This document shows, piece after piece, positions 11,098 to 17,680 of a stretch of DNA of 45,917 bases; positions within the stretch are counted from its first letter, which is position 1, and each line of letters begins with the position of its first letter. The stretch spans positions 1 to 45,917 of the forward strand of contig QQSJ01000061.1 of the NCBI GenBank assembly GCA_003602635.1, read 5' to 3'. The notes beneath the pieces are model-generated. The model was not told where the DNA came from. It was given only the letters and a program-made list of their open reading frames with translations, and did not search any database. The DNA comes from Candidatus Poseidoniales archaeon (GTDB lineage: Archaea; Thermoplasmatota; Poseidoniia; Poseidoniales; Poseidoniaceae). Both the position numbers and the translations under genes were made by a program.

Positions 11098-11367
11098 TCA
11101 TTCTTCTTCCGTAGGTGCGACCGGGCCGCCTGCGGCAGCGATGGCCTCGCGGAAGTGGTGGAGCACGCTGGGCTCTTGGGAGGTGCGGGGATCGATCTCC
11201 GCAACAGAATCCAGGTGGATGGAGCGGCGGGTGACGTTGTGGCGGGATCCCATGATGGAGTACACGCGGTGCTCCGCATCGCCCGCATCAGCGGCGGGGA
11301 GGTCCATCGAGAACGCTTGACGTTGCTGGCCGAAAGGCGCGGTGCCCTTGACGCGGAAGGCCTTCAT
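11098..11367 (-). CDS. rpl18a: 50S ribosomal protein L18Ae/LX (eL20)
   Basis: MKAFRVKG...AEHRVYSIMGSRHNVTRRSIHLDSVAEI; GTTTAAG box 24 nt upstream of ATG 11367. Confidence 0.88.
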   Translation of the reverse strand: MKAFRVKGTAPFGQQRQAFSMDLPAADAGDAEHRVYSIMGSRHNVTRRSIHLDSVAEIDPRTSQEPSVLHHFREAIAAAGGPVAPTEEE

Positions 11368-11452
11368 GAGGCCCGCGACCGGCCGTTCCGTCTTAAACGC
11401 GGCGGCGTGGCATCGCCGGGGGGCTGATAGAGGCAGAGCGTGTGCTGAAGGC

Positions 11453-14374
11453 GTGCGCGCCGCTCTGATGATCGTCCTGCTCCTCGGCGCAGGGCTTGGT
11501 CCAATGGCTGCGCCCGCCCATGAATCGGGGCTGGTCGTGCTCGAAGTCGAGGAAGGCGTGTGGACCCAAGCCACATGGACGGCCTTGACGGAAGACGGGT
11601 GGTCTCTCCTCCGACTGGCCACATGGACGGAAGCCGTCGTTTGGCACGATGGGGCGAGAGCCCCGCCGGAGGGATTCCTCATGCGCGCCGTGCCGGTGCC
11701 TGACGTCGATGCCTTGGTGGTGGATCAGCCGGTCAGGCTGGTGTTTGAACCTCGTCTGCCCGCTGAGGCGGTCGAACGGTTGGTCGCGGCCGGTGGCCCA
11801 ACGACCGTGGAACCGAACATGCGTGGCGTTCAAACCGTCATGGTGCCCTTTCACCCCACCCAACAACACTGGCCTGGCCTGCAACAAATCGAACCCGTCC
11901 TCCACACCGAGTCCCGGAACGACCGAGGCGCTGGCTTGCTACAATCCGGATCACAAAGCGACTTCCCATTGTGGGCGCTTGGTTTCAACGGAAGCGGCGT
12001 GGTGCTGGCCACCGCCGACAGCGGACTGGACATGGATCACGCTTGTTTCCGACAGGGAACGGACGTGATTGGAACACCGGGGCCTGACCACAGAAAGGTG
12101 GTCTTGCTCAACACCACCCTCGATGACGGGGACACACCCGGTCACAGCGATTACCGCCATGGGACCCACACCGCCGGCACGCTCGGATGTGAGCCAGTGG
12201 ACTGGAACCGTTCCAACGCGCCCGGCGAAGGGGTTTCGTTGGCGCATGGTGCTCGCCTCGTCGTCGCCGACATCGTTGATGCCAGTGGGTGGTCTCCGCC
12301 TTCGTTCGACGCCCTGTTGTCGGAAGCTGCGCTGCAGGGAGCCGTCATTCACGCCCACTCATGGGGCGATGACACAACGGAATACACGGCCAGGAGTGAG
12401 GCGCTTGATCGGTGGTCGTTGGAACACCCTTGGACCCTGGCGTTCATTGCACCGGGCAACGGTGGACAGGTGCTTGAGCCTGCCAATGCCCTCAACGCGG
12501 TGGCGGTTGGAGCCACGACGGTGGGCACCCCTGACGAGCGGTGGGTCGGTTCGCCTGAAGGTCCGACGGTGTTTGGCACCGATGGCATTGGTCTCCTTGT
12601 GCCCGGAGCGCACATCGTCTCCGCGAAAGCCGACGGAGATCCGAACAGCATGAACGGGGATTGGCGGGGTTCCAGCGGCACGAGCATGGCGACGCCCATG
12701 GCGGCCGCTGCGGCCGGTGTGCTGCAACAGATGATCGAGGACGGCGTGCTGCACGGCGGCTCGCCCAGTGAAGCGACCCTCAACCTCACCGCACACGCCC
12801 CGATGTGGGCGAGCCCGGACCCTTCTGGCCTGGCTTGGGCGTCCGATGGATGGACGCCGTCGGGCCCCATGCTGCGCGCAGCCTTGTCGCTAAGCGCCGA
12901 ACCGCTTCCCCCGGAACACGCCAACGGAGGAGCGGGGCCGGGAGGATTGAGCAACGCTCACGACGGATGGGGTCAACCACGGCTGGAGCGGTTGCTCGCG
13001 CCCACCCAGATCGATGGAGCGTGGGATTTGACGCCGCATGTGTTCCTTCACGACGCGTACCGGCTTCATGCCGGAACGCCACAAAGCCTGCTTGGCGAAC
13101 GTCTGAACCTCACTGGGAACACCGATCGTCTCGGTGAAGCCCCATGGAACGGTTCCGGGGCCGTGGGGCCTTTCCTCGCCGAAGGGGACCGTTACCAACG
13201 GACGTTTGACCTCCGACCGGGAGAGGACCTCGACGTGCGGTTGGCCTACCCTTCGCTGGGCGGTCAAGCCGTGGATGACCTCGTGCTCTACGTTCACTTG
13301 GACGACGGTCATACAGCGGCGTCGGGGATTGATTTCGGAGGGGCTTCCGTGTTGAGTGACGACGTCCCATCGCCTGAACGGTCAAACGAAACGCTGCGTG
13401 GAATCCACATCAACTCGGACGATCTTGGCAACGCCACGTCGGCGACGGTGGAGGTTGTCGCTCGCCACGTGGTGCCAGGAAACAGCCCGGGTGCTTTGGG
13501 TGCAGACGGGGATCGCATCGGTTTCGCACTGGCCGTCATGGGGGTGGAACGGGCGCCGCCGGGGCCACAAGACCTCGATGAAGACGGTGTCCTTGACCCA
13601 CTTGACGCGTGTGCGTCAGAACCCGCAGGGGCCGTCGATCTCGACGGCGACGGATGCCCTGACGACCGTGACATGGACGGCATCGACGACGTGGATGATG
13701 CGTGCCCGGACGAAGATGCTCGCCCGGCGGACGGCAACGCCGACGGATGCCTCGACGATTCTGATGCGGACGGCGTCGCCGATCACCTGGATGCTTGCCC
13801 GGCCACCACGGCTGACCCTGCATGGCCCACGAGGGCCGATGGATGCAGGCCCGCGGATGTTGTGCCCGTGGTGGAAGCATCGTTCCCCCAACCCAATCTT
13901 GCTCCTGACCAAGCGTTGGAAGTGGTGGTGATGGTGCGTGACGCCGACGGTGACGGGGGCGAACTTCTCGCCTCGTTGGTCGTTGACGGCGTGCCCCTCC
14001 CGGGCAGCCACATGCACGCCAACGGCACAGGACACCACATCCTCGTCTGGAACGCGACGGTATGGGCCGTGCCTTGGGTCGAGAACGGTTCGCTGGTGGA
14101 CGTGATCTTGACCTTCGAAACGTCGAACGCATCGCCGGAAGCGACGCTTGAGGTGGCCATGCCTGTGGGGGGCGTGCGTACCGTCGTCCTCCACCCTCCG
14201 CCTTCTGCCCCAAGCGAGGATATGTCGCCGTCCTTCCGACCGGCTCTCTTGGCTGGGCTGCTTTTGCTGCTTCTTGTGGCGTTGATTCGGTGGCGTGAGC
14301 CGCCTGAACGGGACCCTGCGGGACCACGCGACCCCTTTGTCACCTCGTCGAGGCCTCGAAAATCAGAAGAGTGA
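11453..14374 (+). CDS. Membrane-anchored S8 subtilisin-like serine protease with thrombospondin type-3-like Ca-binding repeats
   Basis: Signal peptide after GTG 11453; triad ADSGLD / HGTHTAG / GTSMATP; DxDxDG repeats; C-terminal TM LLAGLLLLLLVALI. Confidence 0.9.
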   Translation: MRAALMIVLLLGAGLGPMAAPAHESGLVVLEVEEGVWTQATWTALTEDGWSLLRLATWTEAVVWHDGARAPPEGFLMRAVPVPDVDALVVDQPVRLVFEPRLPAEAVERLVAAGGPTTVEPNMRGVQTVMVPFHPTQQHWPGLQQIEPVLHTESRNDRGAGLLQSGSQSDFPLWALGFNGSGVVLATADSGLDMDHACFRQGTDVIGTPGPDHRKVVLLNTTLDDGDTPGHSDYRHGTHTAGTLGCEPVDWNRSNAPGEGVSLAHGARLVVADIVDASGWSPPSFDALLSEAALQGAVIHAHSWGDDTTEYTARSEALDRWSLEHPWTLAFIAPGNGGQVLEPANALNAVAVGATTVGTPDERWVGSPEGPTVFGTDGIGLLVPGAHIVSAKADGDPNSMNGDWRGSSGTSMATPMAAAAAGVLQQMIEDGVLHGGSPSEATLNLTAHAPMWASPDPSGLAWASDGWTPSGPMLRAALSLSAEPLPPEHANGGAGPGGLSNAHDGWGQPRLERLLAPTQIDGAWDLTPHVFLHDAYRLHAGTPQSLLGERLNLTGNTDRLGEAPWNGSGAVGPFLAEGDRYQRTFDLRPGEDLDVRLAYPSLGGQAVDDLVLYVHLDDGHTAASGIDFGGASVLSDDVPSPERSNETLRGIHINSDDLGNATSATVEVVARHVVPGNSPGALGADGDRIGFALAVMGVERAPPGPQDLDEDGVLDPLDACASEPAGAVDLDGDGCPDDRDMDGIDDVDDACPDEDARPADGNADGCLDDSDADGVADHLDACPATTADPAWPTRADGCRPADVVPVVEASFPQPNLAPDQALEVVVMVRDADGDGGELLASLVVDGVPLPGSHMHANGTGHHILVWNATVWAVPWVENGSLVDVILTFETSNASPEATLEVAMPVGGVRTVVLHPPPSAPSEDMSPSFRPALLAGLLLLLLVALIRWREPPERDPAGPRDPFVTSSRPRKSEE
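13571..13850 (+). repeat. TSP3-like DxDxDG...D.CP peptide repeats in the S8 protease
   Basis: DLDEDGVLDPLDAC, DLDGDGCPDDRDMDGIDDVDDACP, DGNADGCLDDSDADGVADHLDACP. Confidence 0.8.
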
Positions 14375-14443
14375 GTCCACCTTTGTCAGGGTGAACCTTG
14401 AAGTCCGGACGCGCAGTCGAGGAACCATAGGACGCTGGATACA

Positions 14444-15448
14444 ATGAGCGAACGACTGTACATCGGCATTGACCTCGGCACGTACCAATCGACCATCGCA
14501 TCGAGCTCCGGCACCATCCACACTGTGGAAACCGTCGTCGGCCGACCCAAGGACCCGGTGGCCCGAAACATGCTCAAGCGTGACGTGCTTTTTGGCGCTG
14601 ATGCGCTCAAGCACAAGATGTCCTGCGACCTGTACCGGCCGATGGCCAAGGGCGTGACGCAAGACGATGAAGCCAACCTGGCGGCCGCGAAGGCCTTCAT
14701 GGGCCACCTCATCGAAACGATGGACCCCGAAGAGTACGACGAAGTCGTTGGCGTGGTGTGCTCGCCCTCCCACGTTTCCTTCACGGACAAGTCCAACCTT
14801 GTCGCCACCCTCCGTGGCCAAGTGAACGCCATCATGGTCGTGAGCGAACCCTTCGCCACCGCCTACGGAATCGGTGAATTCCACGGCACCATCGTCGTGG
14901 ACATTGGTGCAGGCACCACCGACATCGCTCGCCTCTACGGGACCTTCCCCAACGACGACGACCAGATCAGCATCGCCGAAGCCGGCGACTGGCTCGACCT
15001 CCACCTCATGGAACTGATTCGCAAGAAGTTCACCGGCGCTCAAGTCACGAAGGACATGGTTCGCCGCTGGAAGGAAGAGTCGTCGTACGTGGGCGGCGAA
15101 GCCCGTGAAGTCCTCGTCTCCCTCTCCGTCGAAGGCAAGCAACAGCGTGTCGACATCGGCGACCTCATCGGTGAAGCATGCGAAGCGCTTGTGCCCCTCC
15201 TCGGAAACGGCATCAAGAAGACGGTCGCTGGCGCCGACCCGGAATACCAGGAAACGTTCCGCCAGAACATCATCCTCTCTGGTGGCGGCTCCCTCATCGA
15301 GGGCATCGCTGACCGCTTGGCTGCGGAGATCGCCGACATCGGAAACGTCGCTGTTCGCTGCGTCGAAGAGCCGATTGACAAGGTCGCCGTTGGCGCTGTG
15401 GCGCTCGCGCAGGACATGCCCGAAGACATGTTCACCTCCATCGAGTGA
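14444..15448 (+). CDS. Actin-fold ATPase, MamK-like subfamily of the MreB/actin superfamily
   Basis: IGIDLGT (phosphate 1), VVGRPKD, VVSEPF, IVVDIGAGTTDI (phosphate 2), GTFPNDDDQI, PEYQETFRQNIILSGGGSLI (adenosine). These motifs follow MamK more closely than MreB. Confidence 0.88.
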   Translation: MSERLYIGIDLGTYQSTIASSSGTIHTVETVVGRPKDPVARNMLKRDVLFGADALKHKMSCDLYRPMAKGVTQDDEANLAAAKAFMGHLIETMDPEEYDEVVGVVCSPSHVSFTDKSNLVATLRGQVNAIMVVSEPFATAYGIGEFHGTIVVDIGAGTTDIARLYGTFPNDDDQISIAEAGDWLDLHLMELIRKKFTGAQVTKDMVRRWKEESSYVGGEAREVLVSLSVEGKQQRVDIGDLIGEACEALVPLLGNGIKKTVAGADPEYQETFRQNIILSGGGSLIEGIADRLAAEIADIGNVAVRCVEEPIDKVAVGAVALAQDMPEDMFTSIE

Positions 15449-15537
15449 CGGCGCCGCCGTTTTGCTCGGACAACGCAGGCCCTCAGGGGCTCGATTGAAG
15501 GAAGGTTCAAGTGCGGTTCGACGGGCTTCACGCTCAC

Positions 15538-16788
15538 ATGTCGTCCAGCGAAGCCGTTTCGACTCGTGGGACCCCAAGTGCTCGTGAGGAGCGTGCTGCC
15601 CTCGAAGGCATGCTCCGTGGGTATCCCGTGGAGCAATTGGTCGAGGAGGTCATGACCGCCTGGGAGGAACTTGCGGAACGAAACGACGAGGTCGTTGAAG
15701 CCAAGCAGCGCCTTCGGGTCATGGAACTTGATTTGGCAGAGCGGGCCGACGAGGTGGCTCCTGAAGTCAAGCGACTGAAGGAAGTCGAACAAGTCGCCAG
15801 CGAAGCGCAGGCCCGCATCGTCCACCTGGAGCGTTTGCTTGAGGACGCGAGAGAGGAAGCGGCCATGCATGCGGCCTCCGCCTCGGCCGAGGAACGAGCA
15901 AGGCTCACCGCTGAAGTGGAACGGCTTGGCGCCTTGTGCGAGGACCAAGACGAAGTCATCGGTGAAATGGAAGAGCGGGTGGAACGGATGGTCGTCGCAC
16001 TGGAGCGGGCGGCTGACGCGGGCTTGACCTCGGTCACCGCAGACGAAGTTCGACGTTTGAAGCAACTCAACGAAGAAGCGCAAAGCGCCCTGGCCGGCGA
16101 ACAAGCCAGCGTTCGCAGCCTCGAAGAGGAACGGCAGCGCCTTCGTGACATCGCCGACCGGCTCCGTGGATTGATCGACGTCCGAGACCAACGGCTCGCC
16201 GAACTCGAGGATCAGGTCGAGCGCGTCATGAGTGGCCCCAAGTCCATCTCAGCTGAACACGATTACCTCGTTGAGCAAATCGAGGACCTCAAGCGCCGTC
16301 TCCTCGAACGAAACCGCGAGTACGAATCGCTCCGACGCCGTGAGCGGCGCCTCCACAACGACGTGTTTGAGCGCGACGAGCGGTTGCAGCAGATGACGCT
16401 CACCATGACCGACCTCGAAGCGGCCTTGCAGGACCGTACCGCAGAACTGCGGGACCTCGAAACGCGCGCCAGCGACGCAGAAGACGAAGTGGCACGCCAG
16501 CGACGTGGTGAGCGCACCCGTGAAGTCGTGGGCAAGGCCTTCTCCGACACGCTCGGACTCGTTCGAGGTCACGATCAGCGTGAAGCCGCGCGTGCTGCGT
16601 ATGCTGACGCTCCAGACGTTGAGCGGCGCATCAGCAGCCCGACCGTCGAAGACATGCAGGACCTCGCTCAGGGCGGCCAACTCGATCTTGACGTGGACGT
16701 CGAAGCCGTTCCCGTCGGTGAAGCGCTTGACGAGGATCGTCCTCCCGCCCCCGGCGGCAAAGGCGACCCTGTGGTTTACGACGAGTGA
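15538..16788 (+). CDS. Long segmented coiled-coil protein with acidic/Pro tail
   Basis: About 300 aa of E/R/L-rich heptads broken by short linkers; no Walker motifs and no TM; GTTCAAG 26 nt upstream of ATG 15538. Confidence 0.8.
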   Translation: MSSSEAVSTRGTPSAREERAALEGMLRGYPVEQLVEEVMTAWEELAERNDEVVEAKQRLRVMELDLAERADEVAPEVKRLKEVEQVASEAQARIVHLERLLEDAREEAAMHAASASAEERARLTAEVERLGALCEDQDEVIGEMEERVERMVVALERAADAGLTSVTADEVRRLKQLNEEAQSALAGEQASVRSLEEERQRLRDIADRLRGLIDVRDQRLAELEDQVERVMSGPKSISAEHDYLVEQIEDLKRRLLERNREYESLRRRERRLHNDVFERDERLQQMTLTMTDLEAALQDRTAELRDLETRASDAEDEVARQRRGERTREVVGKAFSDTLGLVRGHDQREAARAAYADAPDVERRISSPTVEDMQDLAQGGQLDLDVDVEAVPVGEALDEDRPPAPGGKGDPVVYDE

Positions 16789-17594
16789 GCGGTCAGTCCG
16801 CTCAGCACATCGTCCAGTGCGTGGATCAATTCCGTCGTGTCCGCCGTCTCTTCGATCAACGTCCCGGTCACGACCCAGTCTGCTCCCGCGGCAACGGCCG
16901 TAGCGGCCGCGGCACCGTCGCGCAGTCCGCCACCGACCATCAAGGTCAGTCCGTCCACGTCACGTGCAGCGCGAATGAGCTCGGGGCTGACGGGAGCATC
17001 GGCCCCCGAGCCAGCCTCCAGATAGAGCAACTGGAATCCATACATGGAGGCCGTCAAGGCATTGGCTTTGACGCGGTCCGCGTCGCCGGCCTCCACGAGG
17101 TCCGCTTGGCCGACGCGGCCCACTTCGCCTCCCGGGGCCATCACGAGGTAGCCGGTCGGGACGGTGTCGATTCCAAACGCGGCGATGTGGGGGGCTCCGC
17201 GGACTTGTTCTGTGATGAGGAATCGAGGGTCTGTGCTGTTCATGAGCATCATGAACAGGATGCCGTCGGCGGCCGGTGAAAGGGCGTGAGCGCCTCCGGG
17301 AAAGAGGACGACCGGAACGCGCCACGTGTCTTCGTTCCCCTCGGGATTTTGCGAGGCGGCCATGGCCGCAAGGTCGAGGGCGTCCTGAATGGCGGTGCAC
17401 GTGGCGTGCACAACCTCGTTTGGCGTGTCGGTCGAACCACCCACAAGGATGAGTTGTGTGCCGCGTTCGACGGCAACAAGGGCCCTTCGTGCAGCGATTT
17501 CGACGTCCTGCTTGCCTGGGTCGATCAACAGGGCGTGGCGGGGCCCGACCTTTGCCGTCACGTGAGCCAACACATCGCCGTGCTCTGAACGCAT
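16776..17594 (-). CDS. Geranylgeranylglyceryl phosphate synthase (GGGPS/PcrB family)
   Basis: HALLIDPGK, ILVGGST, PVVLFPG, LLYLEAGSGA, VGGGLRD, GADWVVTGT. Start set at ATG 17594. Confidence 0.92.
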   Translation of the reverse strand: MRSEHGDVLAHVTAKVGPRHALLIDPGKQDVEIAARRALVAVERGTQLILVGGSTDTPNEVVHATCTAIQDALDLAAMAASQNPEGNEDTWRVPVVLFPGGAHALSPAADGILFMMLMNSTDPRFLITEQVRGAPHIAAFGIDTVPTGYLVMAPGGEVGRVGQADLVEAGDADRVKANALTASMYGFQLLYLEAGSGADAPVSPELIRAARDVDGLTLMVGGGLRDGAAAATAVAAGADWVVTGTLIEETADTTELIHALDDVLSGLTAHSS

Positions 17595-17680
17595 CTCGAC
17601 CGGTTGAACCACGGGACAGAGGACGATAGCCGTTGCCGACGCAACCACCACGATGAAACCCAATGGCGCGAGCGGCCACC

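What the first reader, a model, noticed from the sequence alone, without database searches (positions are those of the whole stretch)
14444..16788. MamK-like actin next to an intermediate-filament-like coiled-coil protein: candidate archaeal cytoskeletal system
Seen: an actin-fold ATPase with VVGRPKD, VVSEPF, IVVDIGAGTTDI, GTFPNDDDQI and PEYQETFRQNIILSGGGS, with no mreC/mreD, parR/centromere or mam genes nearby. It has a 5' leader (CTTGAAG 40 nt upstream) and strongly C-ending codons, suggesting high expression. Directly downstream on the same strand is a 416-aa protein with a short head, coiled-coil segments split by linkers (APE, ASASA, GLTSVTA, SGPKSISA) and an acidic/Pro tail. Known: these motifs match magnetosome MamK (VVGYPKD, VVSEPF, IIVDIGAGTTDI, GTVP..EDQ, PEYQ....QNIVFAGGGS) better than MreB; MamK works with an adjacent acidic adaptor (MamJ), and haloarchaeal salactin is a related archaeal actin. 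Inference: a filament plus adaptor/scaffold pair for positioning DNA, vesicles or inclusions, or for shape, in a non-magnetotactic planktonic archaeon.
Basis: partly seen in the sequence, partly recalled or inferred. Interest (0 to 1): 0.8.

Follow-up and report, generated by a model that had tools for sequence, protein, structure and literature searches.

The report
Archaeal MamK-like actin with coiled-coil partner
Abundant ocean archaea of Marine Group II keep an actin-like filament gene, related to the bacterial magnetosome actin MamK, together with a long helical rod protein found only in this group; this is probably an unstudied internal skeleton whose job in the cell is still unknown.

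Summary
Both genes are real. The actin (14444-15448, 334 aa) scores 331 bits on NCBI's MamK model, against 77 on the best MreB model. That is below the MamK cut-off of 400. Its best solved relatives by sequence and by fold are MamK, then BeeR.

In my trees it sits in an archaea-rich branch apart from true magnetosome MamK. An AU test does not reject joining the two (p 0.105).

The 416-aa neighbour is a heptad-patterned, very acidic helical rod. It has no Pfam family and was found only in Poseidoniales.

In 151 genomes of the order, the actin and the full-length rod occur in exactly the same 99. In 35 of the 52 actin-less genomes only the rod's first ~155 residues survive, as a small gene. A shared 11-base motif lies upstream of both genes.

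A second actin paralogue pairs with a zinc-ribbon protein. Binding, polymerisation and function are not shown. No paper was found.

This scan has already reported the same module at least seven times on other Poseidoniales DNA.

The parts
14393..14403 (+). Conserved upstream motif GAACCTTGAAG (extended form GGTGAACCTTGAAG), 40 nt before the actin ATG. Likely promoter (TATA-like) element.
   Evidence: sequence; the same or a near-identical motif is seen by eye upstream of the actin in most of 15 orthologous loci; one of only 2 matches to GAASSTTSAAG in the window; 12 matches in the whole genome against 14 for the reversed control, so it is not a general consensus. Its role as a promoter is inferred.
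14444..15448 (+). actinA: 334-aa MamK-like actin-fold ATPase, the presumed filament subunit.
   Evidence: ORF. MamK NF040964 331 bits, BeeR 208.5, MreB 77.1. PDB MamK E 4.7e-59; model pLDDT 78.3, best fold matches MamK 5ljw/5ljv; 78% mean column identity over 13 orthologues.
15449..15465 (+). GC-rich palindrome followed by TTTT, directly after the actin stop codon. Possible archaeal terminator.
   Evidence: sequence. T-runs follow the actin stop in several relatives. Function inferred; the simple terminator scan did not flag it.
15501..15511 (+). Motif GAAGGTTCAAG, 26 nt before the ATG of the coiled-coil gene. Likely its own promoter element; it overlaps the alternative GTG start at 15511.
   Evidence: (G)GAAGGTTCAAG is seen by eye upstream of the coiled-coil gene in most of 13 orthologous loci.
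15538..16017 (+). Coiled-coil protein, head plus coil 1 (aa 1-160). This module survives alone as a 141-189 aa gene in actin-less relatives.
   Evidence: helices 15-26 and 31-160. (mini form, colinear, ends where the first linker starts).
16018..16251 (+). Conserved linker 1 (AGLTSVT, aa 161-167), coil 2 (aa 168-231) and conserved linker 2 (GPKSISA, aa 232-238).
   Evidence: helix breaks. (both linkers nearly invariant). (a/d positions 0.67 hydrophobic against 0.11 elsewhere in coil 2).
16252..16608 (+). Coil 3 (aa 239-357). Its start (around SAEHDYLVEQ) is the most conserved stretch of the family.
   Evidence: run of invariant columns, aa 233-281.. (a/d 0.56 against 0.11).
16609..16788 (+). 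Acidic, proline-rich disordered tail (aa 358-416) ending in a conserved short motif (PGG.GDPV plus an aromatic and acidic residues), then the stop codon.
   Evidence: P405, G406, G407 and P411 invariant after a variable linker. (pLDDT below 50). (net -12, 7 Pro).
11342..14374 (+). Context: 1010-aa S8 subtilase with a C-terminal membrane anchor, conserved directly upstream of the actin.
   Evidence: Peptidase_S8, 79.4 bits. (upstream of the actin in 24 of 24 loci). No functional link shown.
16776..17663 (-). Context: GGGP synthase (archaeal lipid synthesis), convergent with the coiled-coil gene and overlapping its end.
   Evidence: it stays beside the coiled-coil gene, or its mini form, even where the actin is elsewhere or missing.

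Best explanation
This is a lineage-specific cytoskeletal module of Poseidoniales (Marine Group II archaea).

actinA is a MamK-type actin. It most likely binds and hydrolyses ATP and polymerises into filaments. The gene after it encodes a dedicated, highly acidic coiled-coil rod, about 46 nm long if fully extended (my estimate from about 313 helical residues).

I read the rod as a modular adaptor or scaffold. Its C-terminal two-thirds (coils 2 and 3 and the tail motif) serve the actin filament. Its N-terminal third (head plus coil 1) contacts some other, actin-independent cell component.

Each gene has its own similar upstream element, so the two are probably co-regulated but separately transcribed. 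The actin may be made in larger amounts.

The module is one of two parallel pairs in these genomes; the other is actinB with a zinc-ribbon protein. It is dispensable, because genome-streamlined Thalassarchaeaceae have lost it.

Shown: the family relationships, the fold, conservation, synteny, co-occurrence and the motif. Inferred: polymerisation, actin-rod contact, which half of the rod does what, and the cellular role (positioning or shaping; cargo unknown).
For: The actin is MamK-like:
- MamK HMM 331 bits against MreB 77.
- PDB MamK E 4.7e-59 over residues 3-329, with the residues that align to MamK E143 and D161 conserved as E135 and D153 (their catalytic roles are recalled, not tested).
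- Fold: MamK filament 5ljv TM 0.89/0.91, BeeR next, MreB later.
- It is strongly conserved: 60-78% identity across the order in the genus-distinct loci. That exceeds the neighbours: ABC 65-68%, GGGPS 49-61%, S8 33-42%.
- No other MreB-like gene was found in this 69%-complete genome.

The partner is a rod:
- Three long helices with two invariant linkers and heptad periodicity.
- No Pfam family.
- 271 confirmed loci; 76 of the 80 kept carry archaeal/Poseidoniales titles and 4 carry bacterial MAG titles.

The two are linked:
- Adjacent on the same strand in 22 of 24 loci, and in 10 of the 12 loci from other genera.
- In the two exceptions the rod gene is retained elsewhere (G015), or starts 8.4 kb downstream at the contig end, where only a 40-residue piece is seen (G025).
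- In 151 genomes, actinA is in 99 and the full-length rod in the same 99. None of the 52 without actinA has the full-length rod.
- 35 of those 52 keep only residues ~5-157 as an intact small ORF, still convergent with GGGPS in the three loci I examined.
- The GAASSTTSAAG motif occurs twice in the window, upstream of each gene; 0 of 100 shuffles reach 2. It is conserved in relatives.

Pairing with a partner recurs across the clade:
- actinB with a zinc-ribbon protein: adjacent in 8 of 8 loci, present together in 29 of 41 genomes and both missing in the other 12.
- Other Thermoplasmatota actins are followed by another charged partner family.
- The nearest bacterial relatives carry a coiled-coil plus acidic extension fused to the actin.

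Expression: contigs from RNA libraries of two studies cover the actin at 90-95% identity. DNA carry-over is not excluded.
Against: - No experiment or prediction here shows that the two proteins touch.
- Adjacent genes are lost together in assembly gaps, and kin are not independent. The 99/99 co-occurrence therefore reflects few evolutionary events. actinB and its partner vanish in the same lineages, so the loss may be general streamlining.
- The rod gene is tied to GGGP synthase at least as firmly as to the actin. In G015 the break falls exactly between the actin and the rod gene, and in G025 8 kb are inserted there.
- The two genes do not form a tight operon: an 89-nt gap, a T-run after the actin, and a separate upstream element.
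- The motif test is post hoc, because the pattern was derived from these two sites.
- The residue aligned to MamK A278, whose A278D change gives the non-polymerising crystal form (title of 5ljw), is Glu here and Pro in 9 of 14 orthologues (crude pattern match). MamK's longitudinal contact is therefore not conserved in detail.
- The rod profile does not match the partners of other MamK-like actins (best E 0.43; 0.011 at 4.9 bits). 'Actin plus charged partner' is a theme, not a homologous system.
Confidence: 0.55

Rival explanations
1. The two genes are functionally independent. The coiled-coil protein does something else (envelope, division or chromosome organisation), and it sits beside the actin only through conserved gene order in this order of archaea.
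For: - The whole block S8 protease - actin - rod - GGGPS is syntenic, so adjacency alone is weak evidence.
- The rod stays with GGGPS when the actin moves away (G015).
- Each gene has its own upstream element and the actin has a T-run after its stop.
- The N-terminal third of the rod persists without any actin in 35 genomes.
- The actin shows codon bias (C3 0.56) and the rod does not (0.39).
Against: - Strict co-occurrence of the full-length rod with actinA: 99 of 99, and 0 of 52.
- It is the C-terminal two-thirds of the rod, not a random part, that disappears with the actin.
- The two upstream motifs resemble each other and are rare in the genome.
- Other actins of the same clade have their own dedicated neighbours.
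Confidence: 0.25
2. The rod is itself a filament former of the crescentin or intermediate-filament kind. Together with the actin it sets cell shape, as crescentin depends on MreB in Caulobacter (recalled).
For: - Head-rod-tail layout with conserved linkers.
- After its own family, the language-model look-alikes are crescentin rod clusters: score 0.92, 6 of 30 hits.
- Pfam Rod_CreS gives weak hits in 4 of 11 family members, best E 0.016.
Against: - Only 147 shared features, below the 170 typical of the same family.
- No Rod_CreS hit for the window's own protein at E up to 1, and many unrelated coiled-coil families score alike.
- Nothing here tests self-assembly.
- No information on cell shape was gathered here.
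Confidence: 0.12
3. The pair is a DNA-segregation machine of the ParM/ParR or salactin kind. The rod would be the adaptor that binds a centromere or the chromosome.
For: - Actin plus adaptor gene pairs are the ParMRC layout (recalled).
- Salactin, whose nearest actin subfamily in its authors' trees is MamK, was reported as a dynamically unstable archaeal actin (PMC10746226; passages). Its link to DNA partitioning is recalled.
- JGI's automatic name for the rod is 'chromosome segregation ATPase'.
Against: - No repeat array or centromere-like site near the genes.
- The rod has net charge -40 and no recognisable DNA-binding domain.
- The JGI name reflects weak SMC coiled-coil similarity only: 27.9 bits against a cut-off of 567.
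- The genes are chromosomal and conserved in place.
- Salactin model: 25.8 bits against a cut-off of 400.
Confidence: 0.07
4. actinA is a non-polymerising actin-fold ATPase (enzyme or chaperone-like), and no filament is involved.
For: The residue aligned to MamK A278 is Glu or Pro rather than Ala. Polymerisation is untested.
Against: - All close solved relatives are filament formers: MamK, BeeR, MreB, actin.
- Hsp70 (17.6 bits) and EutJ (17.7 bits) score far lower; no sugar-kinase family appears among the Pfam or NCBIfam hits.
- The model matches the filament-state MamK best.
- The A278 position varies across the MamK-like family.
Confidence: 0.05

Closest known systems
MamK with its partners in magnetotactic bacteria: MamJ; McaA/McaB; the coiled-coil Mad20/23/25/26 and the actin-like Mad28 of Desulfovibrio magneticus RS-1
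   Same: Closest solved relative by sequence and fold. It is an actin that works with acidic or coiled-coil partner proteins encoded nearby (PMC12748827, abstract and outline; PMC13170167, search listing only; the role of MamJ is recalled).
   Different: - Score below NCBI's MamK cut-off (331 < 400).
- In the best tree, a different clade from named MamK and MamK-like proteins, though not excluded by the AU test.
- Archaeal host, with no magnetosome genes beside it.
- The partner is not homologous to any family in Pfam. I had no Mam or Mad partner sequences to compare directly.
BeeR (Verrucomicrobiota; three-stranded tubular actin; PDB 8r2n)
   Same: A MamK-related actin of non-magnetotactic organisms with unknown function (PMC11929497, passages). 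It is the second-best match here: 208.5 bits and Foldseek E 1e-26.
   Different: BeeR-like proteins form the outgroup clade in my trees. The disordered N-terminal domain that the paper calls the BeeR hallmark is absent: actinA's first strand begins at residue 4. Cut-off 530 not met.
Crenactin with arcadins (Pyrobaculum)
   Same: An archaeal actin encoded with lineage-specific partner genes, one of which regulates the filament (PMC5173319, search listing and start of abstract only; that arcadin-2 acts through a short C-terminal peptide is recalled).
   Different: Crenactin is the eukaryote-like actin branch, whereas actinA is MamK-like.
MreB with crescentin (Caulobacter)
   Same: An actin homologue plus a coiled-coil rod with head, rod and tail. 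Crescentin clusters are the nearest named look-alikes of the rod.
   Different: actinA is not MreB (62-77 bits against cut-offs of 293-366). Rod_CreS is not met. No mreC or mreD. The crescentin-MreB dependence is recalled, not checked.
Salactin (Haloarchaea and other Methanotecta)
   Same: An archaeal actin whose nearest actin subfamily in its authors' trees is MamK (PMC10746226, passages).
   Different: Only the last ~60 residues match the salactin models, below cut-off (Pfam 21.7 against 27.1; NCBIfam 25.8 against 400). Salactin has a long charged N-terminal tail (same paper), which actinA lacks.

Membership tests
MamK family (NCBIfam NF040964) | Whole-protein score at or above the curated cut-off (400 bits) | tested here: not met
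   331 bits, E 7.4e-99, covering profile positions 1-330 of 335. The paralogue actinB scores 357.7.
MamK family (NCBIfam NF040964) | Groups with named magnetosome MamK / MamK-like proteins in a tree | tested here: inconclusive
   In the best trees the Poseidoniales actins (100/98*) lie apart from the clade holding P0077 (MamK-like of Paramagnetospirillum magneticum) and P0052 (annotated magnetosome MamK), which has support 98/93*. Forcing them together costs 14.7 log-likelihood units, p-AU 0.105, so the grouping is not rejected.
MamK family (NCBIfam NF040964) | MamK-type actin fold with the nucleotide-site acidic residues | tested here: met
   Foldseek: 5ljv_A TM 0.89/0.91, rmsd 2.4, E 4.8e-32. 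E135 and D153 align with MamK E143 and D161 (their roles are recalled).
MamK family (NCBIfam NF040964) | Magnetosome gene context | tested here: not met
   Neighbours are an S8 protease, GGGP synthase and an ABC transporter. A genome-wide search for mam genes was not run.
MreB (TIGR00904 / PRK13927) | Score at or above cut-off (365.75 / 293 bits); mreC/mreD context | tested here: not met
   63.2 and 77.1 bits. In the own genome only the two MamK-like genes hit TIGR00904, at 81.5 and 62.4 bits. No mreC or mreD beside the gene.
BeeR (NF053558) | Score at or above 530 bits; disordered N-terminal domain | tested here: not met
   208.5 bits. No N-terminal extension. The hallmark is as described in PMC11929497.
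Salactin (NF053533 / PF25229) | Score at or above cut-off over the whole protein | tested here: not met
   25.8 bits against 400, and 21.7 against 27.1; only residues 267-324 match.
Crescentin / bacterial intermediate-filament-like rods (PF19220 Rod_CreS) | Match to the rod-domain model | tested here: not met
   No hit for the window protein at E up to 1. 4 of 11 family members hit, best E 0.016, among 59 unrelated coiled-coil families. Atlas look-alike 0.92 with 147 shared features, a lead only.
Crescentin / bacterial intermediate-filament-like rods (PF19220 Rod_CreS) | Self-assembly into nucleotide-independent filaments | not testable with these tools
   Needs purified protein.
ParMRC-type partition system | Centromere repeats and a small DNA-binding adaptor beside the actin | tested here: not met
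   No repeat array in 14250-16900. The neighbour is a 416-aa acidic rod.
Polymerising actin (any family) | Nucleotide-dependent filament formation | not testable with these tools
   Inferred from relatives only. The residue aligned to MamK A278 differs.

The most novel reading that the evidence does not exclude
Poseidoniales possess a genuine multi-filament cytoskeleton built from two diverged MamK-type actins. Each has its own dedicated, lineage-specific adaptor: a modular acidic coiled-coil rod for actinA and a double zinc-ribbon protein for actinB.

The rod's C-terminal two-thirds, with its tail peptide, dock on the filament. Its N-terminal module anchors to a conserved cell structure that persists even in lineages that discarded both actins.

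This would be a new archaeal filament-adaptor system in one of the ocean's most abundant archaeal groups. It would be evolutionarily closer to bacterial organelle-positioning actins than to the crenactin or Asgard actin line.
Probability: 0.35. Interest if true: 0.75.

Novelty: new variant of a known kind. Interest (0 to 1): 0.6.

Why it matters
Marine Group II archaea are among the most abundant archaea of the surface ocean and remain uncultured, so almost nothing is known of their cell biology.

The archaeal actins I know of as described (crenactin, salactin, volactin, Asgard actins, Ta0583; list recalled) do not include a MamK-type system with a dedicated partner. None of my four searches of the held library found one. 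Of the two Marine Group II papers I opened, neither mentions actin or the cytoskeleton.

If the pair is a filament plus adaptor, it offers three things:
- a defined, testable two-protein system, with both genes small enough to express;
- a natural domain dissection, full-length rod against the mini form;
- a case showing that MamK-like actins are a broad, mostly non-magnetosome family shared by bacteria and archaea.

Databases label these genes 'MreB' or 'rod shape-determining protein', and the partner 'hypothetical' or 'chromosome segregation ATPase'. Both labels mislead.

Tried and rejected
**Complex prediction.** I folded actinA (alignment A2) with the full rod (A1). Verdict: 'no answer', score 0.00 in both runs against a mark of 0.32; controls were not run. 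This counts neither for nor against binding.

**Archaellum link.** Rinke et al. report the archaellum operon in all Poseidoniaceae and half of the Thalassarchaeaceae genera (PMC6461757), which resembles the actin's distribution. I compared archaellin (PF01917) with any MamK-like actin in the 14 genomes of family f3:
- both present: 1
- actin only: 3
- archaellin only: 2
- neither: 8

There is no association, so I dropped the idea.

**General promoter consensus.** The motif has 12 matches in the genome against 14 for the reversed control, so it is not a common promoter signal. A longer form, GTGAANNTTSAAG, with up to 1 mismatch hits only the actin site.

**Homology between the rod and other actin partners.**
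- Against the partners of other Thermoplasmatota actins: best E 0.43.
- Against the N-terminal extensions of the fused bacterial actins: best E 0.011 at 4.9 bits.

Both were rejected.

**RNA evidence for the rod gene.** None of the four runs laid has a contig beyond 15616. These are contigs chosen through the actin, so this says nothing about expression of the rod. One RNA-library contig starts at 14427, about where a start site would fall if the motif is a TATA-like box. Contigs cannot show transcript ends, so I do not use this.

**Other negatives.**
- The sigma-70 promoter scan found none, as expected for an archaeon.
- Pfam scans of the actinB partner and of the other lineages' partner proteins found no family.
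- Nothing had been noted earlier near this place in this genome.
Full report
**What is there.** The window carries two same-strand ORFs exactly as described: 14444-15448 (334 aa), and 15538-16788 (416 aa from ATG; 425 aa from a GTG at 15511). The flanking genes are:
- a 1010-aa S8 subtilase with a C-terminal membrane anchor, upstream;
- GGGP synthase, convergent and overlapping the end of the second gene;
- an ABC transporter.

GGGP synthase marks an archaeon. The record titles of related loci name Candidatus Poseidoniales/Poseidoniaceae, that is Marine Group II.

CTTGAAG lies 40 nt before the ATG. The actin has the strongest C-ending codon bias of 20 window ORFs, C3 0.56 against 0.33-0.49; the second gene is average at 0.39.

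**What the actin is.**

| Model or structure | Score | Cut-off |
|---|---|---|
| NCBIfam MamK | 331 bits (E 7e-99, full length) | 400 |
| NCBIfam BeeR | 208.5 bits | 530 |
| Best MreB model | 77 bits | 293 |
| NCBIfam salactin | 25.8 bits | 400 |
| Pfam MreB_Mbl | 79 bits | 27 |
| PDB MamK (5ljw, 5jyg, 5ljv) | E about 5e-59 | - |
| PDB BeeR (8r2n) | E 1e-35 | - |
| PDB MreB | E 3e-13 | - |

Pfam has no MamK model and sees only MreB_Mbl. An AlphaFold model from 13 orthologues (pLDDT 78.3, pTM 0.78) matches the MamK filament subunit best (5ljv_A, TM 0.89/0.91, about 33% identity), then BeeR, then MreB and actins.

The residues aligned with MamK E143 and D161 are conserved as E135 and D153; their roles are recalled. 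The residue aligned with MamK A278 is Glu here and Pro in 9 of 14 orthologues. The A278D mutant is the 'non-polymerising' crystal form according to the title of 5ljw. The longitudinal contact therefore cannot be assumed identical.

The own genome (69% complete) has no true MreB. Only this gene and a paralogue hit the MreB model, at 62 and 81 bits.

**Where it sits in the family.** A search of 1.84 billion cluster representatives found 1053 relatives at E up to 0.001, and 120 at E up to 1e-30. I scanned 69 proteins against NCBIfam (68 full-length representatives and actinB). All are MamK-like or BeeR-like, and many non-magnetotactic ones fall on either side of the MamK cut-off.

Named anchors:
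- P0077 is the MamK-like protein of Paramagnetospirillum magneticum.
- P0052 is an annotated magnetosome MamK, which also carries an FtsZ domain.
- P0007 is from a candidate division KSB1 bacterium.

In a 97-row quick tree and a 48-row careful tree:
- The Poseidoniales actins form two sister clades, A (this gene) and B. Each has 100/100 support, and together 100/98.
- Next come long KSB1-type proteins, in which a coiled coil and an acidic disordered stretch are fused in front of the actin (93/81).
- Then come actins of other Thermoplasmatota.
- The clade holding the named MamK proteins is separate (98/93).

However, forcing Poseidoniales actins and that clade together is not rejected (p-AU 0.105). 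I also named the group after seeing the tree. I therefore call the gene MamK-like and do not file it as MamK.

**The partner.** The 416-aa protein has no Pfam family. It gives only weak SMC-type coiled-coil hits (27.9 bits against a cut-off of 567).

Eleven orthologues align with 65% mean column identity. There is a run of invariant positions at the start of the third helix (around SAEHDYLVEQ), two nearly invariant short linkers, and a conserved terminal motif (PGG.GDPV followed by aromatic and acidic residues) after a variable acidic linker.

The model (pLDDT 78.6, pTM 0.32) shows helices 15-26, 31-160, 168-231 and 239-357, then a disordered tail. Hydrophobic residues follow a heptad pattern: a/d positions 0.67 against 0.11 in helix 168-231, 0.56 against 0.11 in helix 239-357, and weaker in the first long helix. 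Net charge is -40.

Relatives were found only in Poseidoniales:
- 271 confirmed loci in one-genome-per-species contigs. Of the 80 kept, 76 carry archaeal titles and 4 carry bacterial MAG names, probably binning errors.
- 1401 proteins in the large protein collection. The top 120 are all 421-447 aa and unnamed, 'hypothetical', or auto-named after SMC or SbcCD.

Both searches depend on shared exact words, so distant relatives could be missed.

A language-model search lists crescentin-rod clusters after the protein's own family (0.92, 147 shared features). Pfam's crescentin rod model does not reach threshold. 'Intermediate-filament-like' is therefore a description of layout, not membership.

**Are the two linked?** By synteny, the order S8 - actin - rod holds in 22 of 24 loci. 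Twelve of the 24 are from the window's own genus; of the 12 from other genera, 10 hold the order.

The two exceptions are informative:
- In G015 the rod stays beside GGGP synthase while the actin and S8 gene lie elsewhere.
- In G025 about 8 kb are inserted between them.

By co-occurrence, I sampled 151 genomes of the order, all at least 85% complete apart from the window's own. actinA is present in 99: the own genome, family f1 85 of 86, f2 1 of 1, f3 12 of 63. The full-length rod is present in exactly the same 99.

Of the 52 genomes without actinA:
- none has the full-length rod;
- 35 have a 141-189-aa ORF matching only rod residues ~5-157 (two of these are weak or cut);
- 17 have nothing.

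In three such genomes I looked at the locus. The short gene sits where the rod gene should be, convergent with GGGP synthase, and the actin and S8 genes are gone from there. Ten short forms from seven genera align colinearly with head plus coil 1 and stop where the first linker begins.

I read this as a domain-level signal. The C-terminal two-thirds go with the actin; the N-terminal third has a life of its own.

Caveats:
- Adjacent genes drop out together in assembly gaps. G399, G034 and G365 keep actinB only.
- The losses are few events among kin.
- actinB disappears in the same lineages.

**Regulation.** An 11-nt motif (GAASSTTSAAG) occurs twice in the 45.9-kb window, 40 and 26 nt before the two ATGs. 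The expected count is 0.13, and 0 of 100 shuffles reach 2. The pattern was derived from these sites, so this test is circular.

Independent support comes from relatives. The motif, often as GGTGAA..TT.AAG, is present upstream of both genes in most orthologous loci. It is not a general promoter signal: 12 matches genome-wide against 14 for the control.

It overlaps the GTG at 15511, which argues for the ATG start (416 aa). A GC palindrome plus TTTT follows the actin stop codon. I infer two similar promoters: a short leader with a GGTGA-type ribosome site for the actin, and a nearly leaderless message for the rod.

Contigs from RNA libraries of two studies cover the actin at 90-95% identity. One spans 15466-15616. 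This shows presence in RNA libraries, not a transcript structure.

**A second pair, and the wider theme.** Nearly every actin-bearing genome has a paralogue, actinB (about 46% identical; MamK model 358 bits). It is always preceded, on the same strand, by a 352-aa protein with zinc-ribbon motifs at both ends and no Pfam family: 8 of 8 loci.

Across 41 genomes the zinc-ribbon gene is present in the same 29 that have actinB. That includes three genomes lacking actinA, and excludes two that have actinA only.

Outside the order, 7 of about 235 other Thermoplasmatota genomes sampled have a MamK-like actin:
- In three of them it is followed by a 429-618-aa protein with a folded N-terminal domain, a charged helical region and a conserved C-terminal motif.
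- In two it lies inside a chemotaxis gene cluster, followed by a shorter relative of that domain.

None of these partners, nor the fused extensions of the KSB1 proteins, matches the rod profile. 'MamK-like actin plus a charged or coiled-coil partner' recurs, but with non-homologous partners. The same holds in magnetotactic bacteria (PMC12748827, abstract).

**Function.** I could not determine it.
- The archaellum idea failed.
- There is no centromere-like array.
- The rod is too acidic to be an obvious DNA binder.
- The module is dispensable in streamlined lineages. The actin-less f3 genomes are 1.2-1.7 Mb; the f3 genomes that carry actinA are 1.6-2.2 Mb.

**Literature.**
- Four searches found no paper on an actin or MamK-like system in Poseidoniales or Thermoplasmatota.
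- Two Marine Group II papers contain no mention of actin or the cytoskeleton.
- The salactin and BeeR papers discuss MamK relatives but not these archaea, in the passages I saw.
- I could not see the supplementary trees.

**Earlier work in this scan.** The scan has reported this same module at least seven times on other Poseidoniales genomes, with the same reading. I re-derived the core claims here. I added the order-wide co-occurrence table, the mini form of the rod, the actinB/zinc-ribbon pair, the negative archaellum test and the AU test.

Noticed in passing
L025 6980-8008 (-) and 8057-9115 (-) = G000:C114, outside the window: A second MamK-like actin (actinB, about 46% identical to actinA). 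It is always preceded by a 352-aa protein with N- and C-terminal zinc-ribbon motifs and no Pfam family. The two are adjacent in 8 of 8 loci, co-occur in 29 of 41 genomes and are jointly missing in the other 12. A conserved TTCATAAG-like element lies between the two genes.
   Followed up: partly
L124 4986-5474 (-), L125 4980-5474 (+), L126 4995-5462 (-); also L128-L134: Actin-less Thalassarchaeaceae keep a 141-189-aa gene that equals only the head and first coil of the coiled-coil protein. It is still convergent with GGGP synthase in the three loci examined. Found in 35 of the 52 actinA-less genomes sampled.
   Followed up: yes
L115 5908-9059, L116 161-3085, L117 4582-7038: In other Thermoplasmatota the MamK-like actin is followed by a 429-618-aa protein of another unnamed family. 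It has a folded N-terminal domain, a charged helical or low-complexity region and a conserved C-terminal motif. No Pfam family.
   Followed up: partly
L118 3459-8691 and L119 4379-10288: In two genomes of another Thermoplasmatota family, the MamK-like actin and a 318-341-aa partner sit inside what looks like a chemotaxis cluster. The CheA-, CheD- and CheC-like ORFs were judged by eye from the N-terminal sequences and were not scanned.
   Followed up: no
P0003-P0017 (representatives); P0007 is from a candidate division KSB1 bacterium: The nearest bacterial relatives of the Poseidoniales actins are 523-1232-aa proteins. In them a short coiled coil and a long acidic disordered stretch are fused in front of the actin domain.
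   Followed up: partly
P0052 (768 aa): A protein annotated as magnetosome MamK of an uncultured bacterium. It carries a full FtsZ domain (TIGR00065, 351.5 bits) fused before the MamK domain (446 bits).
   Followed up: no
window 11342-14374 (+): The large S8 subtilase with a C-terminal membrane anchor is upstream of actinA in 24 of 24 loci, a tighter linkage than that of the coiled-coil gene. In L116 a 1324-aa surface protein with a cytoplasmic C-terminal domain, and a small GTPase-like ORF, lie upstream of the actin.
   Followed up: no
L027 6986-8040 (G023, single-contig genome): actinB matches in two adjacent frames or pieces (residues 1-163 and 165-352). This may be a frameshift, an internal stop or a sequencing error.
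   Followed up: no
L018 and L024 (G027:C24 and G027:C4): One genome holds two diverged copies of the whole actinA plus coiled-coil pair (70% and 61% identity to the window's actin). With 6% estimated contamination, this may be two strains binned together.
   Followed up: no
L037, L062, L082, L099: Contigs carrying this Poseidoniales gene pair are filed in MAGs named Salinimicrobium, Microthrix, Rhodobiaceae and Salipiger. These are probably binning errors in the public records.
   Followed up: no
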